The position numbers and the translations under genes are program-made. Under the pieces are notes generated by a model that ran no database searches, was not told the DNA's origin, and saw only the letters and a program-made list of their open reading frames with translations. A stretch of 64,000 nt of DNA from Candidatus Gottesmanbacteria bacterium RBG_16_52_11 (GTDB lineage Bacteria > Patescibacteriota > Microgenomatia > UBA10105 > UBA927): the NCBI GenBank assembly GCA_001779095.1, contig MFJD01000004.1:173031-237030 (forward strand), given 5' to 3'. Positions 25,432-42,539 of this stretch are shown here, piece by piece (position 1 is the stretch's first letter; every line of letters begins with the position of its first letter).

Positions 25432-25469
25432 CCTGTCAGCCTGCCTGTGATATATTGGAGCGGTCAGGT

Positions 25470-27761: not shown

Positions 27762-29159
27762 ATGATGGTTCCTATGGCATTTCAAGTGCTTCGTAACAAG
27801 TCCGGATTTATACCGTGGATCTTGATATTGGCCGTCATCGCCATATCATTTTGGCAGACCATCGCTAACCAGTGGTGGTACTGGGAATCATCCAAATACC
27901 TGGCTTTCTATCTGGGACTGGCGACACCGCTTGCGAAAATATTCGATTTCCGGGGAAATGATGCCTTACCGGCAGGGCAATACCGGATTCGGGACCTGGG
28001 TAACGTACTTAACTGGCTGGATGCGCAGTTGTTAGTACTCGGTTTGAAAGCCGGAATTCCCGCGCTGGTTTCCTATACATATTACGCGGCACTTCTGGCA
28101 ATTGCAGTCATCCAGATGTATTTTTCCCGGTTAAATTTCGGACGGCCGGCCAGATGGGTGGCAGCCGCATCGACATTACTTTTCCTGACGGCACCGGCAC
28201 CGTTTCTGACCGGGTCTTACGGCCGGACGAATAAAATCATCGTAGCCCTGCTTTTCATACTGGTATTCTGGATGGCTGTCGGATTTATCCGCCGGGTGAA
28301 AAGCAGCACCCTGACCCCGGTCTGGCTTTTCCTGCTCCTTTTGGCTGCGGCGCTAACCGACGAAACCGGCTTGGTCTTTCTTTTTGCCCTGGCAGTGATC
28401 GCCGGACTGTCGTCGATGAATCAGGGTTCCAGGCGGATTTTCAGAATTGTGCTATCTGCCGGCCTGGCTATCTTTGCGGTGTTTATATACCGTTATGCCT
28501 TAAGTCCGGCAATTGTATACCGGATTACCAGCATCCGGCCGCACCTCTGGGACGTAAAAACCGCCAATATCATGCAGCCGGAACTCCTGATCGGGGGACT
28601 TAGGATGTTCCTGACATACGTCGGCATGCAGTTCGGAAACACCGGCATATGGGGAGGCCTGGCGGCATTAACCGGCGGATTAGTCCTGGTAATTGCGGCT
28701 CAGTCCGGGCACGGACCGGTGACCGGTATTGTCAGACGGCTCTTCTGGCCCCTGATATACGTATTTGTCGCAGGACTATGCATTATGAGCCTGATACTAA
28801 TGTCCGCGACCCTGCCCGGTATCCTGTCACCGATGTCAGCCCTGATGACGTATCCGATTCCCTTTAATGCACTCTTTGCCTGCGGTGCCTGCCTGATCGG
28901 ATGTGCCGCTACCGCTACGAAGCCGGCGGCGCGGAAGCTTCTGGTCCTGACCCTTCTGGTGATGTCGGGATTTAATGTTTTGTCATTACCGTCCCACACA
29001 TCCCAGGTAAATAAGCTGCCCTGGGAGCGCAAAGACGCCAGGGAAATAATAATACCGGTTCTGGCACCGGGACCGTTTAATTTAAACACCTATCCGTTTA
29101 CCCATTATGAAGCGGCAGACGCGGTGATCAGCATCCGGGCCCGGATGGGGAAAAAATAA
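27762..29159 (+). CDS. polytopic integral membrane protein, unknown family (possible GT-C)
   Basis: 465 aa with about 12 hydrophobic segments and no recognisable catalytic motif. Confidence 0.45.
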   Translation: MMVPMAFQVLRNKSGFIPWILILAVIAISFWQTIANQWWYWESSKYLAFYLGLATPLAKIFDFRGNDALPAGQYRIRDLGNVLNWLDAQLLVLGLKAGIPALVSYTYYAALLAIAVIQMYFSRLNFGRPARWVAAASTLLFLTAPAPFLTGSYGRTNKIIVALLFILVFWMAVGFIRRVKSSTLTPVWLFLLLLAAALTDETGLVFLFALAVIAGLSSMNQGSRRIFRIVLSAGLAIFAVFIYRYALSPAIVYRITSIRPHLWDVKTANIMQPELLIGGLRMFLTYVGMQFGNTGIWGGLAALTGGLVLVIAAQSGHGPVTGIVRRLFWPLIYVFVAGLCIMSLILMSATLPGILSPMSALMTYPIPFNALFACGACLIGCAATATKPAARKLLVLTLLVMSGFNVLSLPSHTSQVNKLPWERKDAREIIIPVLAPGPFNLNTYPFTHYEAADAVISIRARMGKK

Positions 29160-29209: not shown

Positions 29210-30181
29210 ATGCGTTCCTTCTGGGAAGGAAAAAAAGTTGCCGTTACCGGGGGTACCGGATTTATCGGCAGCCATCTCGTCGAAGAACTTGTAAAGCAGG
29301 GCGCGCGGGTGACGGTGCCCACGTCTTCCGGAAATACCGGAAATCTCGGGCGTGTCATCAATCAGGTACGGATAGTCCGGGCGGACCTGACCGATCACAA
29401 ATCAGCCCGGAGAGTCTTCAGGGGTCTGGATATCGTGTTGCATCTGGCGGCAAAAGTTGCCGGCATCCTTTATAACAGCACCCATGGTGCGGAAATGTTC
29501 CGGACCAATGCGGCGCTTAACCAGACCGTTATTGACGCTGCTGCCGCAAGCGGGATAAAGCGGATGCTGGTCACTTCCAGCGCCTGCGTCTATGCCCGGT
29601 ATACTCCGCAGCCGATGCGGGAGGAATCCGGCATGGTTGATGAGCCGGAACCGACCAACGGTGGGTACGGTTGGTCCAAGCGGTTCGCGGAAGTCACCGC
29701 CGGATTATATGCCGGGCAGTTCGGCCTGGAGGTTGCCATTGCCCGTCCGTTTAACGCATACGGACCCCGGGACAACTTTGATCCGGCCATGTCCCATGTG
29801 ATTCCGGGTCTGATCACCCGGATCTATTCGGGAGAAAATCCGCTTAAAGTATGGGGATCGGGGAAGCAGACCCGGTCTTTTATATACGTCGATGATCTGG
29901 TGCGGGGGATGATGGATATCACCGAAAAATATGCGGTAGCCGATCCCGTCAACCTGGGCAGCGGTGAGGAAGTGACAATCGCACGTCTGGCCCGGATGCT
30001 GGTGAAACTGTCAGGAAAGAAGACGAAGATTATATTTGACACTTCCAAGCCCGACGGACAACCCCGGCGGCTATGCGACGTTATGTATGCGCGGAATAAG
30101 TTCGGTTTCGTAACGCGGGTAACACTCGAAGCCGGACTGGGTAAAATGCTTTTATGGTACGAACGTCACTTATCATCCTGA
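29210..30181 (+). CDS. NAD-dependent sugar epimerase/dehydratase/reductase
   Basis: VAVTGGTGFIGSHLVEEL, YGWSK (YxxxK) and NAYGPRD motifs identify the family. 323 aa. Confidence 0.8.
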   Translation: MRSFWEGKKVAVTGGTGFIGSHLVEELVKQGARVTVPTSSGNTGNLGRVINQVRIVRADLTDHKSARRVFRGLDIVLHLAAKVAGILYNSTHGAEMFRTNAALNQTVIDAAAASGIKRMLVTSSACVYARYTPQPMREESGMVDEPEPTNGGYGWSKRFAEVTAGLYAGQFGLEVAIARPFNAYGPRDNFDPAMSHVIPGLITRIYSGENPLKVWGSGKQTRSFIYVDDLVRGMMDITEKYAVADPVNLGSGEEVTIARLARMLVKLSGKKTKIIFDTSKPDGQPRRLCDVMYARNKFGFVTRVTLEAGLGKMLLWYERHLSS

Positions 30182-30843
30182 CCCGCAACGAAGTCAGCGG
30201 AATGAAGGCCATGCTGTCGCGGATTCCCTTTACCACCGTTGACGAGTACTTCCTGGTTGATTACCGCTCGACCGACGGGACGGTGGAGCTGGCCCGAAAA
30301 CATAAAATACCCGTCGTCGCCCAAAGGCATCCCGGCCGGGCGGAAGCATTCCGGATTGCGGCCGATAATGCCCGGGGGAATTATCTGATATTCTTCAGTC
30401 CTGACGGTAATGAAGATCCTTCAGACATTCCCAAGATAATCAGATTACTCAAGAAGGGGAATGACCTGGTGATTGCCAGCCGTTTCCTGCCGGGCAGCCG
30501 CAATGAGGAGGACGGGCAGACATTCAAATGGCGGGCTTGGGCAAATATGGGTTTTACCTTGCTGGCCAACCTTCTTTTCAACCGGGGCAGACCGTATGTT
30601 ACCGACTCGATCAACGGATACCGCGGTATCACAAAATCCGCGTTCGGAAAACTCGGGCTGGATGCCCAGGGTTTTGCCGTCGAATTCCAGATGACGATAC
30701 GGGCGATGAAGGCGGAACTGGCAATTACCGAATTCCCCACACTCGAAGGCCCGAGGATCGGGGGCCAAAGCACGTCTTACGCAGTACCCACGGGGCTGAA
30801 GTTTGTATATTATTTTCTCCGGGAAATATTTATCGGAGTCTGA
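30154..30843 (+). CDS. GT2 family glycosyltransferase (polyprenyl-phosphate sugar synthase-like)
   Basis: Begins MVRTSLIILTRNEVSG. Carries DYRSTDGT (the first acidic motif) and FFSPDGNEDPSDI (DxD-like). It overlaps the upstream epimerase by 28 nt. Confidence 0.7.
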   Translation: MVRTSLIILTRNEVSGMKAMLSRIPFTTVDEYFLVDYRSTDGTVELARKHKIPVVAQRHPGRAEAFRIAADNARGNYLIFFSPDGNEDPSDIPKIIRLLKKGNDLVIASRFLPGSRNEEDGQTFKWRAWANMGFTLLANLLFNRGRPYVTDSINGYRGITKSAFGKLGLDAQGFAVEFQMTIRAMKAELAITEFPTLEGPRIGGQSTSYAVPTGLKFVYYFLREIFIGV

Positions 30844-30850
30844 TTGTCCG

Positions 30851-32368
30851 TCAGGAACCGGCGTTAATATTTTCCCCGGTACGCAGGAGTTTCAAACCTG
30901 CCGGATTAGCGTATAGCCAGAAGTTGTCGTTTTTTCCCCAGAAGTACACCGCCGGTGAATGGTGGATCAGGGTAAATCCTTCGGGATCGTTTTCCGGAAG
31001 CGGAAAATCCAACAGAAGAAGGAAAGGGCGGGATTTGGGAAATGCATTTTTTGCCAGACTTACAGCTACATCGGGCGGAAGTGCATCATTTATCCGTTTA
31101 TGTCGTGCATCGATAACGTTGAACGAACCGGCCCGTTGATACTCCGGATACCAGAATTGCCTGTCATTAAAATAGACCAGCACATCTATGGTCATATAAG
31201 CGTGATATGCGGCAATATCCCAGTTTTCAATTCTGTTCCGTTTAATAAAAGCAGCCATGTCTTTTCCGCCGGAAAACGGATAACGGTAATCATTCACATA
31301 CGAAAATCCCGTGTAAATCCAGGAGATACCCAGGAGGCAACTGAAAACAAAAAGGAATATATTCCAGGATATTCTACGGATCAAATCGCGGTGCTGATGT
31401 TTGCCGGTCATCCAAAGGAAAAATATTATGGATATTAACGTGAGACCATGATGCCGGTTGTATCCGGAATACACATAAACATTGATGTAATAAAAGTAAC
31501 CCCAGGTAACCAGCGCCATCAATGTCAGAGGAATATTGTGTATGAGAATTGGGATAAGAGTGGCCAAACAAATGACAGTTCCAATCCTGATTATTTGGGA
31601 AAAGTAAGGCAACTGAATAATGTCCGGTTTGTCAATCGGGAGTGAAGGGACGATGGATTGACGGAGTACTTTCGTAAACTGGGAAGATATGTCCTGTGGT
31701 TTTGCCCAATTCACCAGCTCGGGATTCGGGGTCAGAAGCGCGGCAGTGAATACACCCTGCGCAACCATCAGCGTCAGCACTGTAAAACGGGCGACATTGA
31801 ATTTCCCATACCGGTACATCTCAAATCCGTAAAGGACCGTCAGAAATCCCGCCGGAACCAAAGAGAAAATATTTGCCTGATACAGGAGTACGATCAGCAT
31901 TCCGTATAAAACGGGTTTATCGAACCGTCTGGGGTAGATGGCGGCGACTGATAACAGAAGTGCCCAGGTCAGGACATAATTGCGCTGAACGACAGCGTAC
32001 TCATATGCCAGGAGATACGAAAAAATAAGCAGGATCTTCACTGGCAGGGGAATATTCTTATTGACAAACAGCAGGAGCCAGATAGCGAATATCGCGATGC
32101 CCGCATGGATAATGCCCATGGTTTCAAACGGCAGACCGGCTTTGGCAAACGGAGACAGGATAACAAACCAGGTAATCGGCACGCCTTCATTGGGAACATT
32201 GGCGACCATTTCCGGAATCGATGCTTCCCTGGCCCACCTCCAGGGATGGGCTTCATCCCGCCAGGGCTCATGATGGGATATGCCGAAAAGTACCAATAAG
32301 GAATAAATGGCAAAAATGATAAAGAGTACAGCATTATTCTTCGGTATATATGGCCGCTTCATGTCCAT
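30851..32368 (-). CDS. 'HEPWRDEAHPW'-family polytopic membrane protein, paralog 1 (putative GT-C glycosyltransferase)
   Basis: 505 aa. The first loop is GISHHEPWRDEAHPWRWAREAS, which has a DE catalytic-loop-like motif as in GT-C enzymes. About 11 TM segments and a C-terminal soluble domain of about 150 aa (YPFSGGKDMAAFIKRN..FWYPEY). Paralogous to the 33513 and 35191 genes. Confidence 0.5.
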   Translation of the reverse strand: MDMKRPYIPKNNAVLFIIFAIYSLLVLFGISHHEPWRDEAHPWRWAREASIPEMVANVPNEGVPITWFVILSPFAKAGLPFETMGIIHAGIAIFAIWLLLFVNKNIPLPVKILLIFSYLLAYEYAVVQRNYVLTWALLLSVAAIYPRRFDKPVLYGMLIVLLYQANIFSLVPAGFLTVLYGFEMYRYGKFNVARFTVLTLMVAQGVFTAALLTPNPELVNWAKPQDISSQFTKVLRQSIVPSLPIDKPDIIQLPYFSQIIRIGTVICLATLIPILIHNIPLTLMALVTWGYFYYINVYVYSGYNRHHGLTLISIIFFLWMTGKHQHRDLIRRISWNIFLFVFSCLLGISWIYTGFSYVNDYRYPFSGGKDMAAFIKRNRIENWDIAAYHAYMTIDVLVYFNDRQFWYPEYQRAGSFNVIDARHKRINDALPPDVAVSLAKNAFPKSRPFLLLLDFPLPENDPEGFTLIHHSPAVYFWGKNDNFWLYANPAGLKLLRTGENINAGS

Positions 32369-32937
32369 GATTTGTGGTAAAGCCGGTTCAGAATAATTAC
32401 AGCATAACCGTTGAAATAGAGGGGGAGTGAGTTTTTTTTTATCATATAAGATTTATCCGATCCGGCAATAATTCCCGAAACGAGCATCCGGTTGATTCTT
32501 TTTCGGATAATCGTATCGGTATTATATGTTTTTAAAATCTGGGCAGCAGTTATTCCCTTGTATCCAGCATTGGCAATGACAGCCAATAGTCTGATTCGGA
32601 TGGCAGATTCAAGAAGTGCTCCGAAGACGACCAGCACATAGACTCCGATAATTAACGTGTAAAGAATCAGAGCACCGATAAGTATTATCAGCTGAGCAAA
32701 TAACGGATAATAGGCCGCAATCGTTATATATCGGAAGAAAGGGAAGTAGATCAGAATCGAAATAACTGACGAGGCGACATACAACATAATAGGCCATATG
32801 TATATTTTTTCCGGCGGCAAAAACCTGACTATTACCAGGTGAATAACATAGAAAATCGAGGAAAACGCCAAGGCGTTTAATACTATCAGCATATCTAGAG
32901 ATAAGTACATATCGGGTATCATCCGCTTGACCTCCAA
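32359..32937 (-). CDS. small membrane protein with C-terminal winged-helix-like domain (type B, 192 aa)
   Basis: Four or five N-terminal TM helices, then GITAAQILKTYNTDTIIRKRINRMLVSGIIAGSDKSYMIKKN (helix-turn-helix plus wing pattern). AT-rich. Paired with the 32919-33443 gene, and homologous in architecture to the 40152-40742 gene. Confidence 0.5.
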   Translation of the reverse strand: MEVKRMIPDMYLSLDMLIVLNALAFSSIFYVIHLVIVRFLPPEKIYIWPIMLYVASSVISILIYFPFFRYITIAAYYPLFAQLIILIGALILYTLIIGVYVLVVFGALLESAIRIRLLAVIANAGYKGITAAQILKTYNTDTIIRKRINRMLVSGIIAGSDKSYMIKKNSLPLYFNGYAVIILNRLYHKSWT

Positions 32938-33443
32938 CCGATGATTCTGCGATAGATTTCAATTAGGATATACAGGAATTTGCCTTTGGTCGAAACAAAA
33001 TAAGCATCTGATTTCCGGCCAACAAAACCCATGTGTATCAGGTCGTTGATCCGGTTAGTCACGAGTTCGGTATCTGAGAACAATTTTTTCAGTTCCTTTT
33101 CAGTAGCCCGTCCGCGCTTTACCAGGTAAAGATATATTTTTGCCGACGGGCTGTAATCGCCGTATACGGCGCTGCCGGAATAAAGGATATAAATGACAGA
33201 TATCACAACGTATATGACAGTAGCCGTCAGCGGTAACGGATACATCAGCAACGCCGCCCAACCTGAGTGACCCAAACGGGGTAAAGTATTAAGTACCATC
33301 CAGTTCAGTAGACCACCTGATATAAAAAACAGAAAAATACTCCGAGGCAGATAAATCCGGCCGGAAGCTGCTGCGTTGTGGATTAGGATATGTGCCCCGG
33401 CCACCAGGAGAAATATGGTGATACTTACAAAAATATCCAGCAT
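32919..33443 (-). CDS. small membrane protein with C-terminal winged-helix (MarR/ArsR-like) domain (type A, 174 aa)
   Basis: Three N-terminal TM helices, then SAKIYLYLVKRGRATEKELKKLFSDTELVTNRINDLIHMGFVGRKSDAYFVSTKGKFLY, a typical wHTH. Counterpart of the 39652-40155 gene. Confidence 0.55.
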   Translation of the reverse strand: MLDIFVSITIFLLVAGAHILIHNAAASGRIYLPRSIFLFFISGGLLNWMVLNTLPRLGHSGWAALLMYPLPLTATVIYVVISVIYILYSGSAVYGDYSPSAKIYLYLVKRGRATEKELKKLFSDTELVTNRINDLIHMGFVGRKSDAYFVSTKGKFLYILIEIYRRIIGWRSSG

Positions 33444-33512
33444 ATTCTGAAAATATTCGTTACTCTAACAGTGTATATGAACCACTATCCAATATGTTCC
33501 GAGGCAGTCAGT

Positions 33513-34982
33513 TCATAAGGCAATACCGCGGCCGTATAACCATAAATTTTCCGTTTCGTTCGACCAGAAGTATGTAGCACCCGATGTATGAAGCAGCGAA
33601 TATCCTGCGGATTCCTCATCCGGGAGGGGAAATGACAGAAGCAGTAATACCGGTTTTCCTGGCGGAAAAGCGCGGTCTATCCGTCGGAAGGCATCATACG
33701 TCGAGAGACTGAAAAATAGTGCGTGATACCGATTATCACTGGTATTATAGTATCCCTTCGCACCGAATTCGGGGTACCAAAACTGTTTGTTATTCAGGTA
33801 CGGCAGAACGGCCAGCCCGTGGGATGCAATATAAGCCACAGTATCATATTTATCCAGGTTATTCTGTTTCAGGTAGGTAGCCATATCCCGGGCACCGGAA
33901 GAAGCATAAGTATAGTCAGCACTGTATATATACTTCGTATACCCGAGGGAAACAGTAAATAATACTGCCAGACTGACGAGTAAAACACTACGAACAGCTT
34001 GTCTCACCGGGGTCAACGGCTTCTGGTCGATTCCGCCTAACCAGAAAAAAACAACAAGATATATCAGCAGCAGTCCGTGGTGCCGGATTGATCCTTTATG
34101 GACGTACAGATTAACATACAACCACCAGGAGACGGTAGAAACGCACAGGATAAAAATATGCGTATTCCTCCAGAGAAAAAGCAGAATACCAGGGATCAGT
34201 AGTGCAGTCAGAATAGTAATAATAGTATTAATTTCCGGGGATAGGAAAGGTGCTGCAGGGTGCTGGGGAAATGAAGGAACAATTGCGTTACGGATGATAA
34301 CCGGCAGCTCAAGTAATGGATTGTCGGGAGGGTAATTAATAATCCGAGCAGCACCGTTTCGGAGAGTCAGAAACGTAAAAGCGGCGCTGACCGATAAAAC
34401 CGCAACAGATAGGATAGTCCCTGGTGCCAGTAATTTTTTCCGTAAGATGTCAAAAACAAATAACATCATGAACACCCCTGCAGGAAGTATACTGAATGAG
34501 TTCGTCTGAAACAGCAAAGAGATAAGCAAACTGTAAAGGATGGGTTTAGTAAGCCTCTTATCATACAGGGCTGCGATGGCAAATGTGAGTAAAACAGTCA
34601 GTACATAATTTCTTGATATAACCGAGTATTCATATGCCATATAGTAGGTAAACGGGAATAGGATTTTCAGAAGCATCGGTAATTTCGCGAATCGGAGTAA
34701 TATGTAGACTGCGGTTATGGCAAGTCCCGCATGGATAAATGACATTGTCAGGTAAGGAAAGCCGGCAGGCGCGAAAGGCTTGAGGATCAAAAACCAAAGT
34801 ATCGGCGTGCCTTCATTCCGGATATCTTCTGAAACAATAATACCAAGCGGAGTCTCCCGGGCTTTCATCCAAGGATGTGCCTCGTCCCTCCAGGGTTCAT
34901 GGTACAGAACTCCGAAGATGATGAGGCTGGCGTATATAAACCAAATTGCCACGTACGGCAGAGTCTTCCGCGGAAATGACAT
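33513..34982 (-). CDS. 'HEPWRDEAHPW'-family polytopic membrane protein, paralog 2
   Basis: 489 aa with GVLYHEPWRDEAHPWMKARETP. Same architecture as the 30851 and 35191 genes. Confidence 0.5.
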   Translation of the reverse strand: MSFPRKTLPYVAIWFIYASLIIFGVLYHEPWRDEAHPWMKARETPLGIIVSEDIRNEGTPILWFLILKPFAPAGFPYLTMSFIHAGLAITAVYILLRFAKLPMLLKILFPFTYYMAYEYSVISRNYVLTVLLTFAIAALYDKRLTKPILYSLLISLLFQTNSFSILPAGVFMMLFVFDILRKKLLAPGTILSVAVLSVSAAFTFLTLRNGAARIINYPPDNPLLELPVIIRNAIVPSFPQHPAAPFLSPEINTIITILTALLIPGILLFLWRNTHIFILCVSTVSWWLYVNLYVHKGSIRHHGLLLIYLVVFFWLGGIDQKPLTPVRQAVRSVLLVSLAVLFTVSLGYTKYIYSADYTYASSGARDMATYLKQNNLDKYDTVAYIASHGLAVLPYLNNKQFWYPEFGAKGYYNTSDNRYHALFFSLSTYDAFRRIDRAFPPGKPVLLLLSFPLPDEESAGYSLLHTSGATYFWSNETENLWLYGRGIAL

Positions 34983-35190
34983 ACCTGTGCCAGTATATAG
35001 AGAATCGAATCAGCGGGAAAGTGACTGTCTCCATTCACAAATGCTACTATCCGCTGACAGTGCATGACCGATAGTGTCAACGGCTTCAACTAATTCTGCT
35101 CCATTCCCACGGGTATTGAGTTTATCTACTGTCTGATCGGGGAGGTTTTGTCAGAACCTGAAAGGGCACGTAACACGTCGGAAGACTCCG

Positions 35191-36678
35191 TCAATTCACA
35201 TCCCCATAGGAATACAAAAAGAATTCCTCGGGCCAACTGGACCATATATAAGAGCCGCGGGATTCATACAGCAGCTCGTACCCATCGTAACCTCCCGGGA
35301 AAGTGTATTCGATCGGTGAGGACAGAAGGAGCAAATGGGGCTTCGTACCGAAAGTTGCTTTTATCCTAACCAATGCATCGGCGGGTTTGAGCACATCCGC
35401 CGGTTTATGATACCGGACGTCGAATAAATTATAATATCCGGTTTTCCCGTATTCCGGATACCAGAACTGTTTATCCTTAAAATACGGTAATACGGCAATT
35501 CCGTGGGAACTGCGGTATGCAACTATATCCATATGCAGGAGATTACGAGTCACAATGAATTCCGCCGTATTTTTTGATCCTGAAAAATTGGAAGTATAGT
35601 CCTGGCTATAGAGATAAGCGGTATACGCCCATGAAATAACAAGGAGTATCGAGAGAGAAGTGAAGAAAATGGCTTTCACACCCGATTCAAATTTTGATTT
35701 CCCTGCCTGTACTGTTTCCGAAAACCACCATAAGAAAATAATATAGACCTGAAACAGACCATGGTGTCTGGTATTTCCCGTATGGATAAATGCATTAATA
35801 AGGAGAAGCCATCCAAGACTTGCTGCTGTGATGAGGAGAGCTGACCCGTTCCGTAATACTTTCACAAAAAGAGCAATGAAAAGTATTGCCGTAATAATTG
35901 ATATGGCACCGTCCATTGATTGCACATCAAGGTTCAGGGGACGGTAATGGTCAAACGAGGGGATGAACGCGTTTCGGAGTATAACTGGTATTTGTTCCAG
36001 AGGATATTTGGGTATATCCGGATTTATTGAATATGCCGGGTCGGGTATTAGCATGAAGAATGTAATCAAGGCACTGGCGAACATTATGGATAAAGCTGCC
36101 AGGCGTTGCGGTGATAGTAAACGGCTTCTCATTAATTGAAAGCCGTTAAGTACCATTAATACACCTGCGGGTACGATACTGTAGAGATTCGTCTGGAACA
36201 GGAGGGCAACCAGTGTTGCATAGCGCAGGGGTCTATCGAACCGTAGGGCATGCAAAGAAGCAATGGCGAACAGAAGCACAACTGTAAGTACGTAATTCCT
36301 GGCAATAATTGAGTACTCATACGCGAAAAAATAGGAAAAAAGCATCAATACCTTGACCACCGAGGGAAATTTACCGTACTTCAGGAGCAAAAAAGCAAAC
36401 GTAATCGCGATGACACCATGGAGAAAATTCATCGTCTGATACGGAAATCCGAATTTGGCAAACGGCACCAGCATCATAAACCAGAGAACCGGAGTGCCTT
36501 CGTATTTGGCGTTATCGATGATAGTTGGAATGGAATCCTGACGTGCCATCATCCAGGCATGTGCCTCGTCCCTCCAGGGTTCATGATGAAATACTCCGAA
36601 GAGTATCAGCGCAATGTAAAGCAGAAAAACAATAGTTAATAACGTTTGTTTGCGGATCAGAACCGGTATAAGCCTCAT
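35191..36678 (-). CDS. 'HEPWRDEAHPW'-family polytopic membrane protein, paralog 3
   Basis: 495 aa with GVFHHEPWRDEAHAWMMARQDS and a C-terminal FWYPEYGKTGYYN block shared with paralogs 1 and 2. Confidence 0.5.
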   Translation of the reverse strand: MRLIPVLIRKQTLLTIVFLLYIALILFGVFHHEPWRDEAHAWMMARQDSIPTIIDNAKYEGTPVLWFMMLVPFAKFGFPYQTMNFLHGVIAITFAFLLLKYGKFPSVVKVLMLFSYFFAYEYSIIARNYVLTVVLLFAIASLHALRFDRPLRYATLVALLFQTNLYSIVPAGVLMVLNGFQLMRSRLLSPQRLAALSIMFASALITFFMLIPDPAYSINPDIPKYPLEQIPVILRNAFIPSFDHYRPLNLDVQSMDGAISIITAILFIALFVKVLRNGSALLITAASLGWLLLINAFIHTGNTRHHGLFQVYIIFLWWFSETVQAGKSKFESGVKAIFFTSLSILLVISWAYTAYLYSQDYTSNFSGSKNTAEFIVTRNLLHMDIVAYRSSHGIAVLPYFKDKQFWYPEYGKTGYYNLFDVRYHKPADVLKPADALVRIKATFGTKPHLLLLSSPIEYTFPGGYDGYELLYESRGSYIWSSWPEEFFLYSYGDVN

Positions 36679-36774
36679 GGTACTTCCGGTATGGAAACTT
36701 CGATTTCCCTTAAAGTCATGATTATACTAACATATAGGATTATGACAGAGAGGAATTGAATTCCATATATACTT

Positions 36775-37518
36775 ATGCGTCTTTATAAAGAGGAAAAACA
36801 CGAAGTCATATATCAGACCCAGGTTAATGATCCGTTTTTTAATTACGTAACGGAACTCATGTTTTCCCGGATGACCGGGCCAGGCCGCCTGCTGGATATG
36901 GGTTGCGGCAGCGGACGTAACATCATATTGGCTGCACAAAGGGGATTTGAGGGAGTCGGAATAGATATCAACAGTAAGTCACTTGAGGTTGCCGGGGAAT
37001 ATGCCAAAAGGATGGGCGTTGATAAGAAGACCAGGTTTATCAGGGCAGACCTGAGAAACCTGACATTGCTGGGATTAGGCAAGTTTGATTACGTGATGAT
37101 GCAGGAAGTGATCGAGCATGTCGAGGATTATCAGGCGCTGATCGATCTGTCATACCGGTTGCTTAAGAAAGGCGGCAGACTACTGTTAAGTACGCCGAAC
37201 GATCCGTCTCAGTGGAACCTGCTGGATGAGTATGCTGAACATGTGCGTCGCTTCAGACCGGTGGAGATACGTAGTGCGCTGAAGGAATTTTCCAGGATAG
37301 AAATATTTACTGTTGGGTTTCCCATACAGAGACTGACGATAACCATCTATGATCTGATGCTGAGAATCCTAAAGCGCCAGCATAAAGCCAAACTGTTCCG
37401 CCGCAACGACTTATTCCACGCGTTGTATTTCACTATAGGCGCTGCAGTCATGAATTTCGACGGACTATTTAACGGAATTCACATGGGAACTACTATAGTG
37501 GCGGGTGCGGAGAAGTGA
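36775..37518 (+). CDS. class I SAM-dependent methyltransferase
   Basis: LLDMGCGSGRN (motif I), DYVMMQEVIEHV and LLLSTPN motifs identify the family. Confidence 0.7.
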   Translation: MRLYKEEKHEVIYQTQVNDPFFNYVTELMFSRMTGPGRLLDMGCGSGRNIILAAQRGFEGVGIDINSKSLEVAGEYAKRMGVDKKTRFIRADLRNLTLLGLGKFDYVMMQEVIEHVEDYQALIDLSYRLLKKGGRLLLSTPNDPSQWNLLDEYAEHVRRFRPVEIRSALKEFSRIEIFTVGFPIQRLTITIYDLMLRILKRQHKAKLFRRNDLFHALYFTIGAAVMNFDGLFNGIHMGTTIVAGAEK

Positions 37519-37577
37519 ATCCCGTAAAATACTAATGGTATACTCGATAATTATCGTCCGGTAATAATTTTATTAGA

Positions 37578-38282
37578 ATGACCAGAAATCCCGGCGTCAG
37601 TATTGTCGTCATGGCGTATAACGAGGAACAGAACCTCGGTCCTACTATCGACGGGATCATGCGGGAAGTCCCCAAGGCAACCCGGAATTATGAAATCATA
37701 ATCGTCGAAGACGGCAGCACCGACGGGACGCTTGCAGTGGCAAAACAATATGCCCGGAGAAACCGTCGCATCAGGATAGTCCGGCACCGGATAAATTTCG
37801 GATTCGGAACTTCGTTTAAGGACGGTGTTGCCGCCGCGGAAAAAAAATACGTAATCGGTTTCCCCGGTGATAACGACACGTCACCGGTGTCCCTGAGACA
37901 GATTATCGGGCGCGCAAATGACCGGACAGTCGTTATTTCCTATCCAATCGACTGGAAACAGCGTTCCCTGGCGCGGCACATTATTTCCAGAAGCGTCGTG
38001 ATCCTGTTTAACCTCCTGTTTGGGATGCGACTCCGGTATTATACCGGACAGTTCCTGTGCCGGACTGGCGAACTGCAGAGGATGAATTTAAAGTCCAAAG
38101 GATTTGCCGTATACGCCGAAGCCAAAGTCCGGTTCCGGTATATGGGGATGAAATTTGAAGAAATACCGTTTGAGCATATCGGCCGGAAATTCGGTACCAC
38201 CAAAGCGATATCGTTCAGAAGCCTCTTAGAGACTCTGGAAACGATCGGAATACTCTTAACCGATATTTTTTTCAGAAAGTAA
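37578..38282 (+). CDS. GT2 family glycosyltransferase (DPM1/GtrB-like), paralog of 41787-42539
   Basis: VSIVVMAYNEEQNLGPTIDGIMREVP..IIVEDGSTDGT. About 60% identical to the 41787 gene product. Confidence 0.75.
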   Translation: MTRNPGVSIVVMAYNEEQNLGPTIDGIMREVPKATRNYEIIIVEDGSTDGTLAVAKQYARRNRRIRIVRHRINFGFGTSFKDGVAAAEKKYVIGFPGDNDTSPVSLRQIIGRANDRTVVISYPIDWKQRSLARHIISRSVVILFNLLFGMRLRYYTGQFLCRTGELQRMNLKSKGFAVYAEAKVRFRYMGMKFEEIPFEHIGRKFGTTKAISFRSLLETLETIGILLTDIFFRK

Positions 38283-38373
38283 TTCCTTAATTATTCGAAC
38301 AGACAGATGTGGGATTTCCCGGTAAGAATAGATTATTTTTACTTTAAAGTAGTATAGCTGTTTTTGAGTTGGT

Positions 38374-39579
38374 ATGAAATTATTGCGGACGCTTTTACTA
38401 ACAACAAAAGCTTATGATCCACTGTTGGCTTTACGTGGTTATTCAATTATTCTGATTGTCTGGTGGCACGTCTATTCATATTACCCAGTATATGCTTTTC
38501 ATAATGCCAGCCCTAACTACTGGTTACTATCATCAAGCCCATATGTAGGAGTCTGGACGTTTTTTATACTTTCGGGCTACTTAATCGGAAAGGGTTTTTT
38601 TGCCGGAAGATATACATTATCACCCCGAAATCTAATCCGTTTTTATATACATCGGTTAATGAAGATTGCGCCTTTATACTACCTGACAATAATATATATC
38701 TATTTTGTTCATATAATTCCCTATGGATATACCGAAACCAAACTTGCTCCATTTTTTTTCTTTAATGCAGCCAATCTGATTAATGACAGGTATTTGGGAT
38801 ATCTCTGGTTTGTATCGGTAGTGATTCAGCTTTATATCCTGTCTCCGCTAATCTATCTTGTGAACCGTATGATCCGGTTATTTCGAGTACCTGTATACGT
38901 ACCGTGGTTAATCATATTGGTATATTTTTTACTAATTCCGTTCACCTTTTCCATGCCATATTTACTTCAGAACAGGATGTATTATGATATCACTTTCTAT
39001 TCTTCCGTAGCAGTTAATTTAAGCTTCTTTCTTATCGGATTTTTCATAAATATACTATTTACGAATAAAAACAGTAGTGAGCAACAGGAAAGAATTACAG
39101 GTCGCCCGGCAGTAAAAAAAGTGATGGAAATAGGAGCCAACGTAAGTCTCGTGATACTATATATTATTTCCTCTTATGTTACCGAAAAATTTCTAATCGA
39201 TTATAATTCTAATCTTTTTAATATTATGTTCATTTTGCCTATTTTAACCGTAAGCATAGTCATATATTTCATAGTCACATCAGAGGGTGAAAACCATAAG
39301 AGAAACCGACACAGACAGATACAAGCTAATCACCGGACAATAAATATATTTGAAAAAGTCGGTCAATATTCCTATGGAGTATATTTGATTCACTACCTGG
39401 TTATTTATAGGCTTAAGTATAATTGCCATGCCAACTGTACAATTGCGGATTTACTTTATAAGCAATTACTAGTGTTCGGATGGAGCATGATCATAACAGT
39501 TATTATATACACGATTGCTGGAACTCTGAGAAAACGGATAATCCGAATCAAGCTGAATCCGTTTAAGTATTTACTGTGA
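38374..39579 (+). CDS. acyltransferase family 3 (membrane O-acyltransferase, OafA/WecH-like)
   Basis: LRGYSIILIVWWHV is the acyltransferase-3 N-terminal signature (RG..ILLVV..H). About 10 TM segments. The gene is strongly AT-rich compared with its flanks. Confidence 0.65.
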   Translation: MKLLRTLLLTTKAYDPLLALRGYSIILIVWWHVYSYYPVYAFHNASPNYWLLSSSPYVGVWTFFILSGYLIGKGFFAGRYTLSPRNLIRFYIHRLMKIAPLYYLTIIYIYFVHIIPYGYTETKLAPFFFFNAANLINDRYLGYLWFVSVVIQLYILSPLIYLVNRMIRLFRVPVYVPWLIILVYFLLIPFTFSMPYLLQNRMYYDITFYSSVAVNLSFFLIGFFINILFTNKNSSEQQERITGRPAVKKVMEIGANVSLVILYIISSYVTEKFLIDYNSNLFNIMFILPILTVSIVIYFIVTSEGENHKRNRHRQIQANHRTINIFEKVGQYSYGVYLIHYLVIYRLKYNCHANCTIADLLYKQLLVFGWSMIITVIIYTIAGTLRKRIIRIKLNPFKYLL

Positions 39580-39651: not shown

Positions 39652-40155
39652 ATGATTAGCGTACTTGCCAGCATCCTACTGTTTATTGCAACTCTAGTGA
39701 TTCATATTATGGTCAGGCGTCCCAATGCCCGGAGTATCGGAATCGGAAAGGTGGTAGCGGATTTTGCGGTTGCCTGTATCCTAGCGGCAGTGGCAATTGT
39801 GGCACTTGGGGAATGGTTCAGGGACATCACGCCACCGCTGCCGCTGACCGGAATTGCGATATACGGATTTGCGGCTTTTTCGTATGTGTCTTTTTCCGCT
39901 AGCCCGTTTCTGGGGGATGAAAGCCCTTCGTCCGTAATCGTACTTTTGGCGAGGGAGAAGGGCAGTATGACGCTTGACGATGTATTATCCGAATTCCCGG
40001 ACCGGTCGATTGTCGACAAGCGGATTGCGGATCTGATCAGTACCGGCTGGATAAAAAGGACCCGGAAGGGACTGGTGGCAACCGGGACAGGCCGGATTAT
40101 CGCTGCAGCGTTTGGTACATACCGGCGGTTACTGGGATTAGGGGAGACGGGATGA
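39652..40155 (+). CDS. small membrane protein with C-terminal winged-helix domain (type A, 167 aa)
   Basis: Three TM helices, then SVIVLLAREKGSMTLDDVLSEFPDRSIVDKRIADLISTGWIKRTRKGLVATGTGRII (wHTH). A 4-nt overlap with the next gene. Confidence 0.55.
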   Translation: MISVLASILLFIATLVIHIMVRRPNARSIGIGKVVADFAVACILAAVAIVALGEWFRDITPPLPLTGIAIYGFAAFSYVSFSASPFLGDESPSSVIVLLAREKGSMTLDDVLSEFPDRSIVDKRIADLISTGWIKRTRKGLVATGTGRIIAAAFGTYRRLLGLGETG

Positions 40156-40742
40156 ATATTGACCGGCTGATAATAATCCAGGCGATAACCAGCTCAGCCG
40201 CAATGATGGCGCTGCAGACGTTCGTAATGTCCGGGAAATACAAACAGGCAATCCTCAGGAGCCTTATGGCTGCATTCGGATACGCCACAATTTGCCATTA
40301 CCTGATATCCGCGGCAGTTCTAGCGTATTTACTAAACAGCGGACCGGTGCCGGATTTGTTACCGCTTTATGCTTATCCGGTAATATCATTCATTCTCTTC
40401 GGACTGGTCTGTTTTTCCGTTGTCCTGACGGTTTTCGGCCTCACAGTTACGTCACTCCGGATCCATATCCTGACCGAAATAGCTGATGCAGGAGAACCCG
40501 GAATCGCAGAGACTGCACTTGAGAAGAAATATTCCAAGCGGGAAGTCATGGTTGTGCGGCTGATCCGGCTGACCGAATCCGGCGAACTTGTGAATCGGGG
40601 CCGGCGGTATTTCCCGGTTTACCACCGCTCCTACTTTCTGCTGCATACATTTATCCTGATGTTATACAATCGGCTGTATAATCTGCCCGGGTATGCCCGG
40701 TATTGGAAGAGCGTGGGAGCGAAGTTATTGACGGGAAAATAA
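40152..40742 (+). CDS. small membrane protein with C-terminal winged-helix-like domain (type B, 196 aa)
   Basis: Four TM helices, then IAETALEKKYSKREVMVVRLIRLTESGELVNRGRRYFPV. Counterpart of the 32359-32937 gene. Confidence 0.5.
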   Translation: MNIDRLIIIQAITSSAAMMALQTFVMSGKYKQAILRSLMAAFGYATICHYLISAAVLAYLLNSGPVPDLLPLYAYPVISFILFGLVCFSVVLTVFGLTVTSLRIHILTEIADAGEPGIAETALEKKYSKREVMVVRLIRLTESGELVNRGRRYFPVYHRSYFLLHTFILMLYNRLYNLPGYARYWKSVGAKLLTGK

Positions 40743-40806: not shown

Positions 40807-41790
40807 ATGAACGTACTGGTTACCGGCGCGGGGGGTTTCATCGGCAGTCACATGGTGGATCACTTACTGGAAAAGGGCCACAGTGTTACCGGCTTGGATA
40901 TATTTTCCCGGGGTAAGGAAGAGCATCTACCGTCGAAACAGTATGGAAACCTGCTCCGGCTGATCCAGGCAGACGTGTCTGACCGCACGGCGCTACGGGA
41001 GAAATATTTCCGGGGCGTCGACTGGGTGTTTCACTTCGCCGGCCGCTCCAGTAACGTCAAGTCGCTCGAGAATCCGCCGGAGTACCATGCCGTCAATGCC
41101 ACCGGTACGCTGAACATGCTGATTGCTGCCCATAAGGCTAAGGTGAAACGGTTCGTCTACGCGGCATCGTATTCGTGTTACGGCCAGCCACGAAAGTTTC
41201 CTACCCCGGAAACGGCGCTACTCAAGCCGGAATTCCCGTATGCCCTGACTAAGCTGGCAGGCGAACGCTATACACTGCACTGGCATCGGGCATTCGGATT
41301 GCCGACGATATCCCTGAGGATGACCAGCGTTTATGGGCCGAAAATCCGGACCGGTGGGAACTTCGGGCCAGTAGTCTCACTTTTTGTCGGGCAGAAAACG
41401 GACAGGAAGCCGTTTACAGTAGCCGGTGACGGCAGCCAGAGCCGGGATTTCGTGTATATCGATGACGTGGTTGAAGCGTTTCTGGCTGCTGCCCGGTCGG
41501 ATGTTGCCGGGGAAGTATTTAACGTCGGCAGCGGCCGGTCAGTCAGCCTCAATCGACTGGTGGAACTGCTAGGCGGTCCGGTGACATATGTCTCCAGAAG
41601 GCCGGGAGAAGTCAATAAAACTCTGGCGGATATAAAGAAAATTAAAAAATATTTGGGGTGGACTCCAAAGGTACGTTTTAACCACGGAATCAGAAGGGTG
41701 CTTGAAAGTGCAGGACAAACGGTGAAGCCCGGATTTAATGTCAGAACAATCCGTCCGTCAACAAACAGGCGGAAAGGCGGACACGTATGA
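40807..41790 (+). CDS. NAD-dependent sugar epimerase/dehydratase
   Basis: LVTGAGGFIGSHMVDHL, YALTK and SVYGPK motifs identify the family. About 55% identical to the 26732 gene product. Confidence 0.8.
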   Translation: MNVLVTGAGGFIGSHMVDHLLEKGHSVTGLDIFSRGKEEHLPSKQYGNLLRLIQADVSDRTALREKYFRGVDWVFHFAGRSSNVKSLENPPEYHAVNATGTLNMLIAAHKAKVKRFVYAASYSCYGQPRKFPTPETALLKPEFPYALTKLAGERYTLHWHRAFGLPTISLRMTSVYGPKIRTGGNFGPVVSLFVGQKTDRKPFTVAGDGSQSRDFVYIDDVVEAFLAAARSDVAGEVFNVGSGRSVSLNRLVELLGGPVTYVSRRPGEVNKTLADIKKIKKYLGWTPKVRFNHGIRRVLESAGQTVKPGFNVRTIRPSTNRRKGGHV

Positions 41791-42539
41791 AGAAGGTTAG
41801 TAAATTGAGCAGGGCGAAGACAGGAAAAACCGGTACCGGTATCATCGTGATGGCATACAACGAAGAAAAGAATCTGGGTCCGGCCCTGGACGGTCTGTTG
41901 CGGGAAGTCCCCAAAGTTACCGATGACTTCGAGATACTGGTCATAGACGACGGATCGGATGACTCAACCGGCAATGTTGCCGATAAGTACGGCCGGAAAA
42001 GCCGGCATATCCGGGTGGTCCACCACCGGGAAAACCGGGGATTCGGCCGTTCTTTCCGCAGTGGTGTCAGCCTGACCCGGAAGCGGTACGTGGTGGGATT
42101 CCCCGGTGATAACGATACATCACCCGCATCCCTGGCGCAGCTAGTCAGGCGGGCAAACGACCGCACGGTCGTGACCTGTTATCCGACGGACCTCAGTAAC
42201 CGTTCGGCATTCCGCCATCTGATATCCAAGTCGTTCGTGGTGCTGATGAACGCTGTTTTCAGAATGAACCTGAAATACTTCAACGGGTCATTCATATACC
42301 TCACCGAAGCGGTTAAAAACCTGAATCTTAAGTCAGACGGATTTGCCATATACGCCGAAGCCAAAGTCCGGCTGCGGCATCTGGGATATCCTTTTGAGGA
42401 AATTCCGTTCATTTATACGGGCAGAAAGCACGGTACGTCCAAAGCAGTAACCGGCAAAAGCGTCCGGGAGACTCTGGAAACGATCATTACTTTAGTGAAG
42501 GATATATATCTTAAAAAAAGAATAAATTATTCTAATTAA
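41787..42539 (+). CDS. GT2 family glycosyltransferase (DPM1/GtrB-like)
   Basis: GIIVMAYNEEKNLGPALDGLLREVP..LVIDDGSDDST. The C-terminal 6 codons (RINYSN) are encoded by the ATTATTCTAATTAA repeat motif. Confidence 0.75.
   Translation: MKKVSKLSRAKTGKTGTGIIVMAYNEEKNLGPALDGLLREVPKVTDDFEILVIDDGSDDSTGNVADKYGRKSRHIRVVHHRENRGFGRSFRSGVSLTRKRYVVGFPGDNDTSPASLAQLVRRANDRTVVTCYPTDLSNRSAFRHLISKSFVVLMNAVFRMNLKYFNGSFIYLTEAVKNLNLKSDGFAIYAEAKVRLRHLGYPFEEIPFIYTGRKHGTSKAVTGKSVRETLETIITLVKDIYLKKRINYSN

What the first reader, a model, noticed from the sequence alone, without database searches (positions are those of the whole stretch)
30851..36678. Tandem triplet of 'HEPWRDEAHPW' polytopic membrane paralogs with C-terminal soluble domain, a candidate uncharacterised GT-C family
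Three co-oriented genes (505, 489 and 495 aa) share a strictly conserved first-loop motif H(H/Y)EPWRDEAH(P/A)W, about 11 TM helices, and a conserved C-terminal about 150-aa domain (FWYPEY..., YFWG/IWSS). The Asp-Glu within an early extracytoplasmic loop parallels the catalytic DE/DD motif of GT-C enzymes (PMT, ArnT, Emb/Aft). I do not recognise this motif as belonging to a named family. Triplication suggests three successive linkages or donor specificities.
Basis: partly seen in the sequence, partly recalled or inferred. Interest (0 to 1): 0.65.

Follow-up and report, generated by a model that had tools for sequence, protein, structure and literature searches.

The report
Three unannotated GT-C membrane glycosyltransferase paralogs
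Three neighbouring genes in a candidate-phyla-radiation bacterium encode membrane enzymes with the fold of lipid-linked-sugar glycosyltransferases (GT-C); they belong to a large family found across bacteria and archaea that matches no model in Pfam-A or NCBIfam and no solved structure by sequence.

Summary
Three minus-strand genes (505, 489 and 495 aa; 39-42% identical) all carry HEPWRDEAH(P/A)W just after the first transmembrane helix. The predicted structure has 11 transmembrane helices and a C-terminal alpha/beta domain of about 135 aa.

The GT-C interpretation is supported.
- Charge bias in 56 homologues places the motif outside the cell.
- H32, W35, D37, E38, R127 and H305 are nearly invariant in 133 homologues.

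The family has no Pfam, NCBIfam or PDB sequence match. It has about 4,600-7,600 clusters at 50% identity in many bacterial phyla and some archaea.

Gene context puts it in the transferase position of multi-component extracytoplasmic glycosylation systems. The window has three small GT2 enzymes resembling polyprenyl-phosphate-sugar synthases. Elsewhere the neighbours are GtrA flippases, a UbiA-HAD-GtrA operon, and in about a quarter of loci an overlapping gene resembling UDP-galactopyranose mutase.

Donor, acceptor and the reason for the triplication remain inferred.

The parts
35191..36678 (-). Paralog C (495 aa), GT-C-fold membrane protein and first gene of the operon
33513..34982 (-). Paralog B (489 aa)
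   Evidence: ORF. 42% identical to C, with all conserved residues retained. Sister of C in the NJ tree.
30851..32368 (-). Paralog A (505 aa), last gene of the operon
   Evidence: ORF. 39% identical to C. P0012 = A2Z33_03980.
36553..36585 (-). Signature HEPWRDEAHAW of paralog C (residues 32-42), at the end of TM1 and start of the first outer loop; proposed catalytic acid pair D37/E38
   Evidence: Translation. Helix boundaries. Conservation. Outside orientation.
34869..34901 (-). Signature HEPWRDEAHPW of paralog B (residues 28-38)
   Evidence: Translation.
32240..32272 (-). Signature HEPWRDEAHPW of paralog A (residues 33-43)
   Evidence: Translation.
35194..35592 (-). C-terminal extracytoplasmic alpha/beta domain of paralog C (residues 363-495). 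The equivalent parts of B and A are about 33516-33908 and 30854-31279.
32919..33443 (-). Small membrane protein, type 1 (174 aa): 3-4 hydrophobic helices plus a basic C-terminal domain of about 80 aa with faint winged-helix matches
   Evidence: ORF. Hydropathy and charge. Faint TrmB, Lrs14 and Sta1 matches below cut-offs. Paralogous to 39652-40155.
32359..32937 (-). Small membrane protein, type 2 (192 aa), overlapping both the type-1 gene and paralog A
   Evidence: ORF overlaps. Alignment with 40152-40742 and a pair in a related locus. A profile of the pair also finds pairs next to family members in Lentisphaerae and Verrucomicrobia loci.
30154..30843 (+). Small GT2 (229 aa, no membrane anchor), convergent with paralog A; candidate polyprenyl-phosphate-sugar synthase
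   Evidence: PF00535. Its only PDB sequence match is the archaeal dolichol-phosphate-mannose synthase 5mlz, E 2e-10 over residues 3-208. Best NCBIfam match is AglJ, below cut-off.
29210..30181 (+). SDR epimerase/reductase overlapping the GT2 start (nucleotide-sugar modification)
   Evidence: PF01370. Best NCBIfam match is GDP-L-fucose synthase, E 1e-60, below cut-off.
36775..37518 (+). SAM methyltransferase, divergent from paralog C
   Evidence: Pfam.
37578..38282 (+). Second small GT2 (234 aa)
   Evidence: PF00535. Matches over nearly its full length to ArnC structures (residues 7-222) and to PgfS; the match to GtrB sll0501 covers the N-terminal part only (residues 7-113).
38374..39579 (+). 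Acyltransferase_3 membrane protein (glycan O-acylation)
   Evidence: PF01757, E 2e-29.
39652..40742 (+). Second pair of small membrane proteins (167 aa at 39652-40155, 196 aa at 40152-40742)
40807..42539 (+). SDR epimerase (40807-41790) overlapping a third small GT2 (41787-42539, 250 aa)

Best explanation
The three genes encode active paralogs of an unannotated family of GT-C-fold glycosyltransferases.

Architecture (shown). Each protein has its N-terminus in the cytoplasm, 11 transmembrane helices, a helical first outer loop and a C-terminal alpha/beta domain outside the membrane. That domain resembles the extramembrane domains of ArnT and the oligosaccharyltransferases.

Mechanism (inferred).
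- A cytoplasmic small GT2 loads a modified sugar from a nucleotide sugar onto polyprenyl phosphate.
- The lipid-linked sugar is flipped across the membrane.
- The GT-C paralog binds its phosphate with the conserved outer-face basic residues (R127, R304/H305).
- The acid pair D37/E38 at the start of the first outer loop acts as base or metal ligand to transfer the sugar to an acceptor on the cell surface.

Triplication (inferred). Three paralogs, three GT2 genes and several sugar-modifying enzymes in one island suggest that each paralog adds a different sugar or linkage to a surface glycan or glycoprotein of this Gottesmanbacteria cell.

Family level (inferred). The frequent coupling to a gene resembling UDP-galactopyranose mutase, and one UbiA-HAD-GtrA operon, suggest that many members transfer furanose sugars. 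No such gene lies in this window.
For: Fold.
- AF2 model pLDDT 93, pTM 0.92.
- The best Foldseek match is ArnT 5ezm (E 8e-4, TM 0.57), followed by AftA, STT3, PglB and EmbA.
- The C-terminal domain searched alone gives GT-C enzyme chains as its 8 best matches, with low Z.

Topology.
- Cytoplasmic short loops carry 13.9 K+R on average and outer short loops 2.4. The latter are the conserved R127 and R304.
- The first outer loop has net charge -2.75.

Conservation. All near-invariant residues lie on the outer face. The first outer loop is the most conserved region among the paralogs.

Published GT-C features that are matched. A catalytic Asp after TM1 (PMC11127046). A large loop after TM1 with a DxD-like motif, a conserved Arg between TM3 and TM4, a larger loop before the last four helices, and 11 helices in POMT, TMTC, ALG9 and ALG12 (PMC6801728).

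Context in the window. Three anchor-less GT2 enzymes whose best matches are dolichol- or undecaprenyl-phosphate sugar synthases.

Context elsewhere.
- GT2-SDR-family-methyltransferase in a close relative.
- Family-GtrA-GT2 and GtrA-FAD-family, confirmed by Pfam PF04138.
- Family-UbiA-HAD-GtrA on a Rhizobium plasmid.
- An FAD gene in 26 of 80 loci, in 18 of them immediately upstream on the same strand and usually overlapping. Its closest solved relatives are eukaryote-type UDP-galactopyranose mutases, E 2e-18, with shared GGH, KVW, W..(E/Q)R and NQDH motifs.
Against: - There is no biochemical evidence for any family member.
- No sequence-level link to any known GT-C family was found: Pfam, NCBIfam and a PDB profile search gave nothing, and hhalign against PMT_2 gave probability 1.9%.
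- The residue-level superposition of D37/E38 on a known catalytic Asp could not be done, because the tools return neither coordinates nor structural alignments.
- No GtrA, MATE or Wzx-type flippase was recognised next to the triplet, so the flipping step in this window is unassigned.
- About half of the homologous loci show no glycosylation genes nearby.
- The mutase-like partner and UbiA are absent from the 64-kb window, so the furanose idea may not apply to these three genes.
Confidence: 0.75

Rival explanations
1. The proteins are GT-C-fold enzymes that transfer a preassembled glycan from a polyprenyl-diphosphate carrier. They would act like an oligosaccharyltransferase, ligase or polymerase rather than adding single sugars from polyprenyl-monophosphate donors.
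For: The C-terminal domain resembles the globular domains of AglB and STT3. PglB, STT3 and AglB are among the fold matches. One Omnitrophota locus has a Wzx-type flippase gene nearby.
Against: The recurrent neighbours are GtrA flippases and small GT2 enzymes of the Dol-P/Und-P-sugar synthase type. Both are hallmarks of monophosphate donors. The best global matches are ArnT, ALG12, ALG3 and AftB, all of which use monophosphate donors. No WWDxG-type motif appears among the conserved residues of the C-terminal domain.
Confidence: 0.1
2. The proteins have the GT-C fold but are not glycosyltransferases. They would be non-catalytic scaffolds, like PIG-U/GAB1 of the GPI transamidase, or lipid-carrier binders or transporters.
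Against: Near-invariant acidic, basic and aromatic residues cluster on the outer membrane face at the position of GT-C active sites. All three paralogs keep them. Operons with sugar-activating enzymes and GtrA recur.
Confidence: 0.05
3. The three paralogs are glycosyltransferases but do the same reaction. They would be redundant or condition-specific isoforms, or would act on different acceptors with one donor, rather than making three different linkages.
For: The catalytic loop is 56-60% identical and the conserved residues are identical in all three. Tandem arrays of two or three copies recur in other phyla, in some cases with a single adjacent GT2.
Against: The paralogs are old: they are about 40% identical and are interleaved with orthologues from other metagenomes in the tree. 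They differ most in the long fourth outer loop, at 22-39% identity. The island holds three small GT2 genes and many different sugar-modifying enzymes.
Confidence: 0.25

Closest known systems
ArnT (undecaprenyl-phosphate-L-Ara4N:lipid A transferase, CAZy GT83; PDB 5EZM/5F15)
   Different: No detectable sequence similarity: PF13231 and PF02366 are not matched, the PDB profile search is empty, and hhalign against PMT_2 relatives gives probability 1.9%. The signature differs (HEPWxDEA, YEY..ARNY, RHxG). 11 transmembrane helices are predicted here. The acceptor is unknown.
Mycobacterial arabinofuranosyltransferases AftB and AftA, and GT136 (Citrobacter youngae ORF12) of the pentofuranose three-component systems
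   Different: GT136 has a beta-rich carbohydrate-binding module and is reported as closest in sequence to ArnT. Here the C-terminal domain is alpha/beta and no similarity to ArnT is detectable. The GT136 partners (PPPRS-PRP fusion, MATE flippase) are absent from the window. A direct sequence comparison with ORF12 was not possible.
Gtr-type and CsbB/GtcA/YfhO-type multi-component transmembrane glycosylation systems (GT2 synthase + GtrA flippase + GT-C transferase)
   Same: The same logic and gene neighbourhood are found. A Cloacimonadota locus has family-GtrA-GT2 (326 aa). Omnitrophota and other loci have GtrA-FAD-family. The window has three GT2 genes of the Dol-P/Und-P-sugar synthase type.
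   Different: The window has no PF04138 GtrA. Its GT2 enzymes lack the C-terminal membrane helices of GtrB and CsbB. Pairs of unrelated small membrane proteins with a winged-helix-like tail occupy the operon instead. The family does not match YfhO or any other GT-C model in Pfam-A.
ALG12/ALG9 (GT22) and ALG3 (GT58) Dol-P-Man mannosyltransferases
   Different: These are eukaryotic ER enzymes with no C-terminal globular domain comparable to the one here. There is no sequence similarity.

Membership tests
GT-C superfamily (fold class of polyisoprenyl-linked-donor glycosyltransferases) | Polytopic membrane core with the GT-C helix arrangement | tested here: met
GT-C superfamily | Large extracytoplasmic loop after TM1 carrying a conserved acidic (DxD-like) motif | tested here: met
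   The loop spans residues 32-81 and has three helices. D37 is 131/133 and E38 133/133. Charge bias places it outside. The feature is as described in PMC11127046 and PMC6801728. Superposition of these residues on a known catalytic Asp was not possible.
GT-C superfamily | Conserved basic residues in short outer loops (between TM3 and TM4, and before the last two helices) that bind the donor phosphate | tested here: inconclusive
   R127 (132/133) lies between TM3 and TM4. R304 (109/133) and H305 (125/133) lie between TM9 and TM10. The positions match the pattern in PMC6801728. Their role in phosphate binding is inferred.
GT-C superfamily | Uses a polyisoprenyl-phosphate-linked or polyisoprenyl-diphosphate-linked sugar donor | not testable with these tools
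   Only context is available: neighbouring synthase-like GT2, GtrA and UbiA-HAD genes.
PMT_2 / ArnT / PMT clan (Pfam PF13231, PF02366; CAZy GT83, GT39) | Match to the family profile, or profile-profile similarity | tested here: not met
   None of 56 members matches any Pfam GT-C model at E up to 0.1. hhalign against an alignment of PMT_2 proteins gives probability 1.9%. The PDB profile search gives nothing below E 1.
GT136 (C. youngae ORF12 type) | Sequence similarity to ORF12, a beta-rich C-terminal carbohydrate-binding module, and PPPRS and MATE partners | not tested
The indirect signs differ: the C-terminal domain is alpha/beta, and the window has no UbiA/PPPRS or MATE gene. One distant Rhizobium member does have UbiA-HAD-GtrA partners.
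Gtr-type three-component glycosylation system (functional class) | Adjacent GT2 polyprenyl-phosphate-sugar synthase | tested here: met
   The GT2 at 30154-30843 ends 8 nt from the end of paralog A. Two more lie at 37578-38282 and 41787-42539. Their best matches are DPMS, AglJ, PgfS and ArnC, below NCBIfam cut-offs.
Gtr-type three-component glycosylation system (functional class) | Adjacent GtrA-family (PF04138) flippase | tested here: not met
   None of the four small membrane proteins of the window matches PF04138 at E up to 1. The feature is met in other loci of the family: L004, L010, L069 and L088.
YfhO (PF09586) | Match to PF09586 | tested here: not met
   The three paralogs do not match. 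Four other large proteins of the window match its C-terminal end weakly.

The most novel reading that the evidence does not exclude
The family may be a previously undescribed class of extracytoplasmic furanosyltransferases. In about a quarter of species it is translationally coupled to a eukaryote-type UDP-galactopyranose-mutase homologue, often together with GtrA or a small GT2. This implies a lipid-phosphate-linked hexofuranose donor, for example polyprenyl-P-Galf, for which I found no report in the held literature. One proteobacterial branch instead uses the UbiA-HAD route to polyprenyl-P-pentofuranose. In the candidate-phyla-radiation branch seen here, the mutase is replaced by SDR enzymes and methyltransferases. 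The GtrA flippase may be replaced by a new heterodimeric pair of small membrane proteins with winged-helix-like tails. These could flip the lipid-linked sugar or anchor the membrane-less GT2 enzymes.
Probability: 0.25. Interest if true: 0.75.

Novelty: new variant of a known kind. Interest (0 to 1): 0.55.

Why it matters
GT-C enzymes build or decorate cell-surface glycans in all domains of life, and several are drug targets (the Emb proteins) or resistance factors (ArnT). This finding adds a large family to that class: thousands of sequence clusters in many bacterial phyla and in archaea, with no Pfam, NCBIfam or PDB sequence match. It comes with a clear signature (HEPWxDEA...W; YEY..ARNY; RHxG) and specific residues to mutate.

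The recurring operon with a UDP-galactopyranose-mutase homologue gives a concrete, testable hypothesis for the donor sugar. That hypothesis would extend the recently described extracytoplasmic pentofuranose systems to hexofuranoses.

For candidate-phyla-radiation bacteria, whose envelopes are almost unstudied, the island shows heavy investment in outer-face glycosylation. A 64-kb stretch holds three of these genes, at least seven other candidate GT-C genes, and many sugar-modifying enzymes.

Tried and rejected
- Pfam-A and NCBIfam scans of the three paralogs and of 56 family members gave no family. The only match was a short one to LIC_13387, E 0.0013, below cut-off.
- A profile search of PDB sequences gave nothing below E 1.
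- hhalign against an alignment of PMT_2 proteins built from the window's own PMT_2 genes gave probability 1.9%, so no sequence-level link could be claimed.
- The AlphaFold-database fold library was not available.
- A homologue search with the 174-aa small protein returned only itself, so no deep alignment or structure could be made for it.
- The promoter and terminator scan was no better than shuffles. One 10/12 promoter-like site lies upstream of paralog C at 36748-36721.
- tblastn of the FAD partner against the window, and Pfam scans of the remaining window ORFs, found no mutase-like, UbiA or GtrA gene.
- Literature searches for the family, for PRK07208, for GT-C in Patescibacteria and for lipid-linked galactofuranose returned nothing relevant.
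- The supplement of the GT136 paper held no usable ORF12 sequence.
- Rejected: an O-antigen ligase, Wzy or SEDS-type enzyme. None of these appears among the top fold matches.

Full report
**Observation.** The three ORFs exist exactly as described, all on the minus strand: 35191-36678 (495 aa, paralog C), 33513-34982 (489 aa, B) and 30851-32368 (505 aa, A).
- They are 39-42% identical to each other.
- Each carries HEPWRDEAH(P/A)W.
- C is 100% identical to A2Z33_04000 of Candidatus Gottesmanbacteria bacterium RBG_16_52_11, a candidate-phyla-radiation bacterium.
- The region is not a pure triplet. Two small membrane-protein genes (174 and 192 aa) lie between B and A, with 19-nt and 10-nt overlaps, so the order is C, B, small-1, small-2, A in one probable operon.
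- The whole 30-40 kb stretch has lower G+C (0.39-0.49) than its flanks (0.51-0.55).

**Family.**
- A word-indexed search found 57 homologues, all unnamed and without Pfam domains. One carries a C-terminal TPR fusion.
- A profile of 56 sequences scored against 1.84 billion cluster representatives found 7,655 proteins at E<=1e-3 and 4,626 at E<=1e-30.
They come from Proteobacteria, Bacteroidota, Acidobacteriota, Omnitrophota, Patescibacteria, Planctomycetota, Verrucomicrobiota, Cyanobacteria, Actinomycetota, Clostridia, Leptospiraceae and archaea (Methanoperedens, Methanosarcinales, a DPANN genome).
- No member matches any Pfam-A or NCBIfam model.
- The profile finds no PDB sequence.
- In 133 aligned members the signature is nearly invariant: H32 133/133, E33 124, P34 123, W35 132, D37 131, E38 133, A39 124, W42 131. 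Also conserved are Y122 131, R127 132, Y129 131, R304 109, H305 125, G307 128 and S366 130.

**Fold.** An AlphaFold2 model of paralog C built on the 56-sequence alignment is confident (mean pLDDT 93, pTM 0.92). It shows 11 transmembrane helices, three short helices in the loop after TM1, a loop of about 40 residues before the last four helices, and an alpha/beta domain at residues 363-495.
- The next matches are helical-repeat proteins at very poor rmsd.
- Foldseek independently ranks ArnT first (E 8e-4, TM 0.57 over the full length), followed by AftA, STT3, PglB, EmbA and ALG3.

**Topology and active site.** I used the model's helices as boundaries and 56 homologues for the counts.
- Loops assigned to the cytoplasm carry 13.9 Lys+Arg on average.
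- Short outer loops carry 2.4, and these are essentially the conserved R127 and R304.
- The first outer loop has net charge -2.75.

The N-terminus is therefore inside, and the HEPWRDE motif, which begins at the end of TM1, faces outside. All near-invariant residues lie on the outer membrane face: the end of TM1 and start of the first loop, the TM3-TM4 turn, the TM9-TM10 turn, and the start of the C-terminal domain.

This is the layout published for GT-C enzymes. It includes a catalytic Asp after TM1 (PMC11127046). It also includes a large first loop with a DxD-like motif, a conserved Arg between TM3 and TM4, a basic residue before the last two helices, a larger loop before the last four helices, and 11 helices in POMT, TMTC, ALG9 and ALG12 (PMC6801728).

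Among the three paralogs the first loop is the most conserved region (56-60%) and the long fourth outer loop the least (22-39%). All three keep every conserved residue, so all three are probably active. I could not superpose residues, because neither coordinates nor structural alignments are returned.

**Context in the window.** The triplet sits in a large glycan island.
- Next to it are three small GT2 proteins without membrane anchors (229, 234 and 250 aa).
  - Their best NCBIfam matches, all below cut-off, are AglJ, PgfS, ArnC, PpgS and a haloarchaeal dolichyl-phosphate hexose transferase.
  - Their PDB sequence matches include the Pyrococcus dolichol-phosphate-mannose synthase, which is the only match of the first GT2. 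The second matches ArnC over nearly its full length and GtrB sll0501 over the N-terminal part.
- Around them lie five SDR epimerase/dehydratase genes, two methyltransferases, an acyltransferase_3 and heptose-pathway genes.
- The window also holds three PMT_2 genes, four large proteins with weak YfhO matches, several large polytopic proteins with no match, a sulfotransferase, kinases and split transketolases.
- No GtrA, MATE, UbiA or mutase gene was found.
- Instead there are two pairs of small membrane proteins: 174+192 aa inside the operon, and 167+196 aa at 39652-40742. Each pair consists of two related types. Each protein has 3-4 hydrophobic helices and a basic tail of about 80 residues with faint winged-helix matches.
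- The same pair occurs in a related locus. A profile of the pair also finds copies next to family members in a Lentisphaerae and a Verrucomicrobia genome.

**Context elsewhere.**
- Close relatives lie in similar clusters. One has an overlapping GT2 (236 aa)-SDR-family-methyltransferase operon followed by a carbamoyltransferase.
- Among 80 loci from different species, the commonest neighbour is an FAD protein of about 500 aa.
  - It is present in 26 loci. In 18 it is immediately upstream on the same strand, usually overlapping by 3-76 nt.
  - These loci include Gammaproteobacteria, Patescibacteria, Omnitrophota, Bacteroidota, Planctomycetota, Gemmatimonadota, Actinomycetota and Methanoperedens.
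  - Two further cases came from metagenome contigs.
  - It belongs to NCBIfam PRK07208, which is named only 'hypothetical protein'.
  - Its closest solved relatives by far are eukaryote-type UDP-galactopyranose mutases (E 2e-18 to 4e-18; the next family is at 6e-7). The GGH, KVW, W..(E/Q)R and NQDH motifs align.
- GtrA genes (PF04138) precede this pair in two loci checked with Pfam, L004 (Cloacimonadota) and L010 (Omnitrophota), and in a third, L069, identified by BLAST/HMM only. The Cloacimonadota locus also reads family-GtrA-GT2 (326 aa)-GT87.
- In Methanoperedens the order is GT2-FAD-family, all overlapping.
- On Rhizobium ruizarguesonis plasmid pRlX1, a distant member is followed by UbiA prenyltransferase, a HAD hydrolase and GtrA. 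It is 22% identical and has the motifs HHVMFRDEV and YEYSVMARNY. That gene set is the one that makes and flips polyprenyl-phosphate-ribofuranose in the pentofuranose three-component systems (PMC11127046).
- Tandem arrays of two or three family genes recur in Omnitrophota, Bacteroidota and Leptospiraceae.
- About half of the loci show no informative neighbours.

**Mechanism.**
- Shown: the fold, the topology, the conservation pattern and the gene neighbourhoods.
- Inferred: each paralog takes a polyprenyl-phosphate-linked sugar on the outer leaflet. It holds the phosphate with R127 and R304/H305. It uses D37/E38 as general base or metal ligand to glycosylate a surface acceptor. The C-terminal domain and the variable fourth loop contribute acceptor recognition.
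- In the window, the three GT2 enzymes would make three lipid-linked donors from nucleotide sugars tailored by the SDR enzymes and methyltransferases. The small membrane-protein pairs are candidates for the unassigned flipping or GT2-anchoring step.
- The furanose-donor idea rests on the mutase-like and UbiA-HAD partners of other members. It is not supported for this window.
- The NJ tree places all three paralogs in one clade with relatives from other metagenomes. B and C are sisters and A branches separately, so the duplications are old.

**Comparison and membership.** The proteins work like ArnT, AftB or GtrC-type transferases and meet the structural criteria of the GT-C superfamily. They are not members of PMT_2/ArnT/PMT or YfhO by any sequence test I could run. 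Membership in GT136 or in other recent CAZy families could not be tested.

**Novelty and limits.** This is a new sequence family within a known fold class. It has its own signature and a partner, the UDP-galactopyranose-mutase homologue, that I did not find described together with GT-C enzymes.

The limits are these:
- There is no biochemistry.
- There is no residue-level structural superposition.
- CAZy and InterPro were not checked.
- The AlphaFold-database library was unavailable.
- The neighbourhood statistics come from 80 loci chosen by similarity, many of them truncated.
- The donor, the acceptor and the meaning of the triplication are inference.

Noticed in passing
window 32359-33443 (-) and 39652-40742 (+); L082 14814-15840; L023 3750-4979; L019 9409-10317: Pairs of small membrane proteins (167-196 aa) of two related types, always type 1 followed by type 2, with overlapping genes. 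Each has 3-4 hydrophobic helices plus a basic C-terminal domain with faint winged-helix matches (TrmB, Lrs14, Sta1). They match no Pfam family and lie next to GT-C or GT2 genes in candidate-phyla-radiation, Lentisphaerae and Verrucomicrobia loci. They may be a flippase or a GT2 anchor.
   Followed up: partly
L003, L006, L007, L009, L010, L012, L014-L016, L046, L047, L057, L063, L067-L069 and others; L086, L087: An FAD protein of about 500 aa (NCBIfam PRK07208, named only 'hypothetical protein') lies immediately upstream of the family gene, usually overlapping it, in many phyla and in an archaeon. Its closest solved relatives are eukaryote-type UDP-galactopyranose mutases, with shared GGH, KVW and NQDH motifs. 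It is absent from the window.
   Followed up: partly
L088 (Rhizobium ruizarguesonis plasmid pRlX1, CP140857.1 628920-632591): A distant family member annotated as a hypothetical protein is followed by UbiA prenyltransferase, a HAD hydrolase and GtrA in one operon. This is the gene set of a polyprenyl-phosphate-pentofuranose glycosylation system, in a culturable organism.
   Followed up: partly
window 15-1799, 1777-3990, 8336-10480, 17904-20069 (+); 25425-26729, 58291-59757, 61635-62879 (+): Four large proteins have weak matches to the C-terminal end of YfhO, and three match PMT_2. Including the triplet, the 64-kb window therefore holds at least ten candidate GT-C genes.
   Followed up: partly
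window 27762-29159 (+), 6212-8185 (-), 20972-23233 (-), 15512-16864 (-), 5089-6189 (+), 62868-63965 (-): Further large ORFs have no Pfam match. The 465-aa one next to the cluster is clearly polytopic. They may be additional unannotated membrane glycosylation enzymes.
   Followed up: no
window about 30000-40000: The G+C content falls to 0.39-0.49, against 0.51-0.55 in the flanks, over the stretch that holds the triplet, the methyltransferase, a GT2 and the acyltransferase. This may reflect horizontal origin or membrane-protein composition.
   Followed up: no
window 20078-20986 and 23298-24248; 51935-52957; L082 939-2683: Split transketolase genes (separate N-terminal and pyrimidine/C-terminal halves), together with APH-type kinases and a sulfotransferase (13429-14352), sit inside the glycan island. 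The same kinase-transketolase-methyltransferase set is found in a related locus.
   Followed up: no
P0050 (651 aa); L010 9512-10993 and L087 3886-5277: One family member has a C-terminal TPR fusion, as in TMTC-type GT-C enzymes. B12-binding radical SAM genes and methyltransferases recur next to the FAD-family pair.
   Followed up: no
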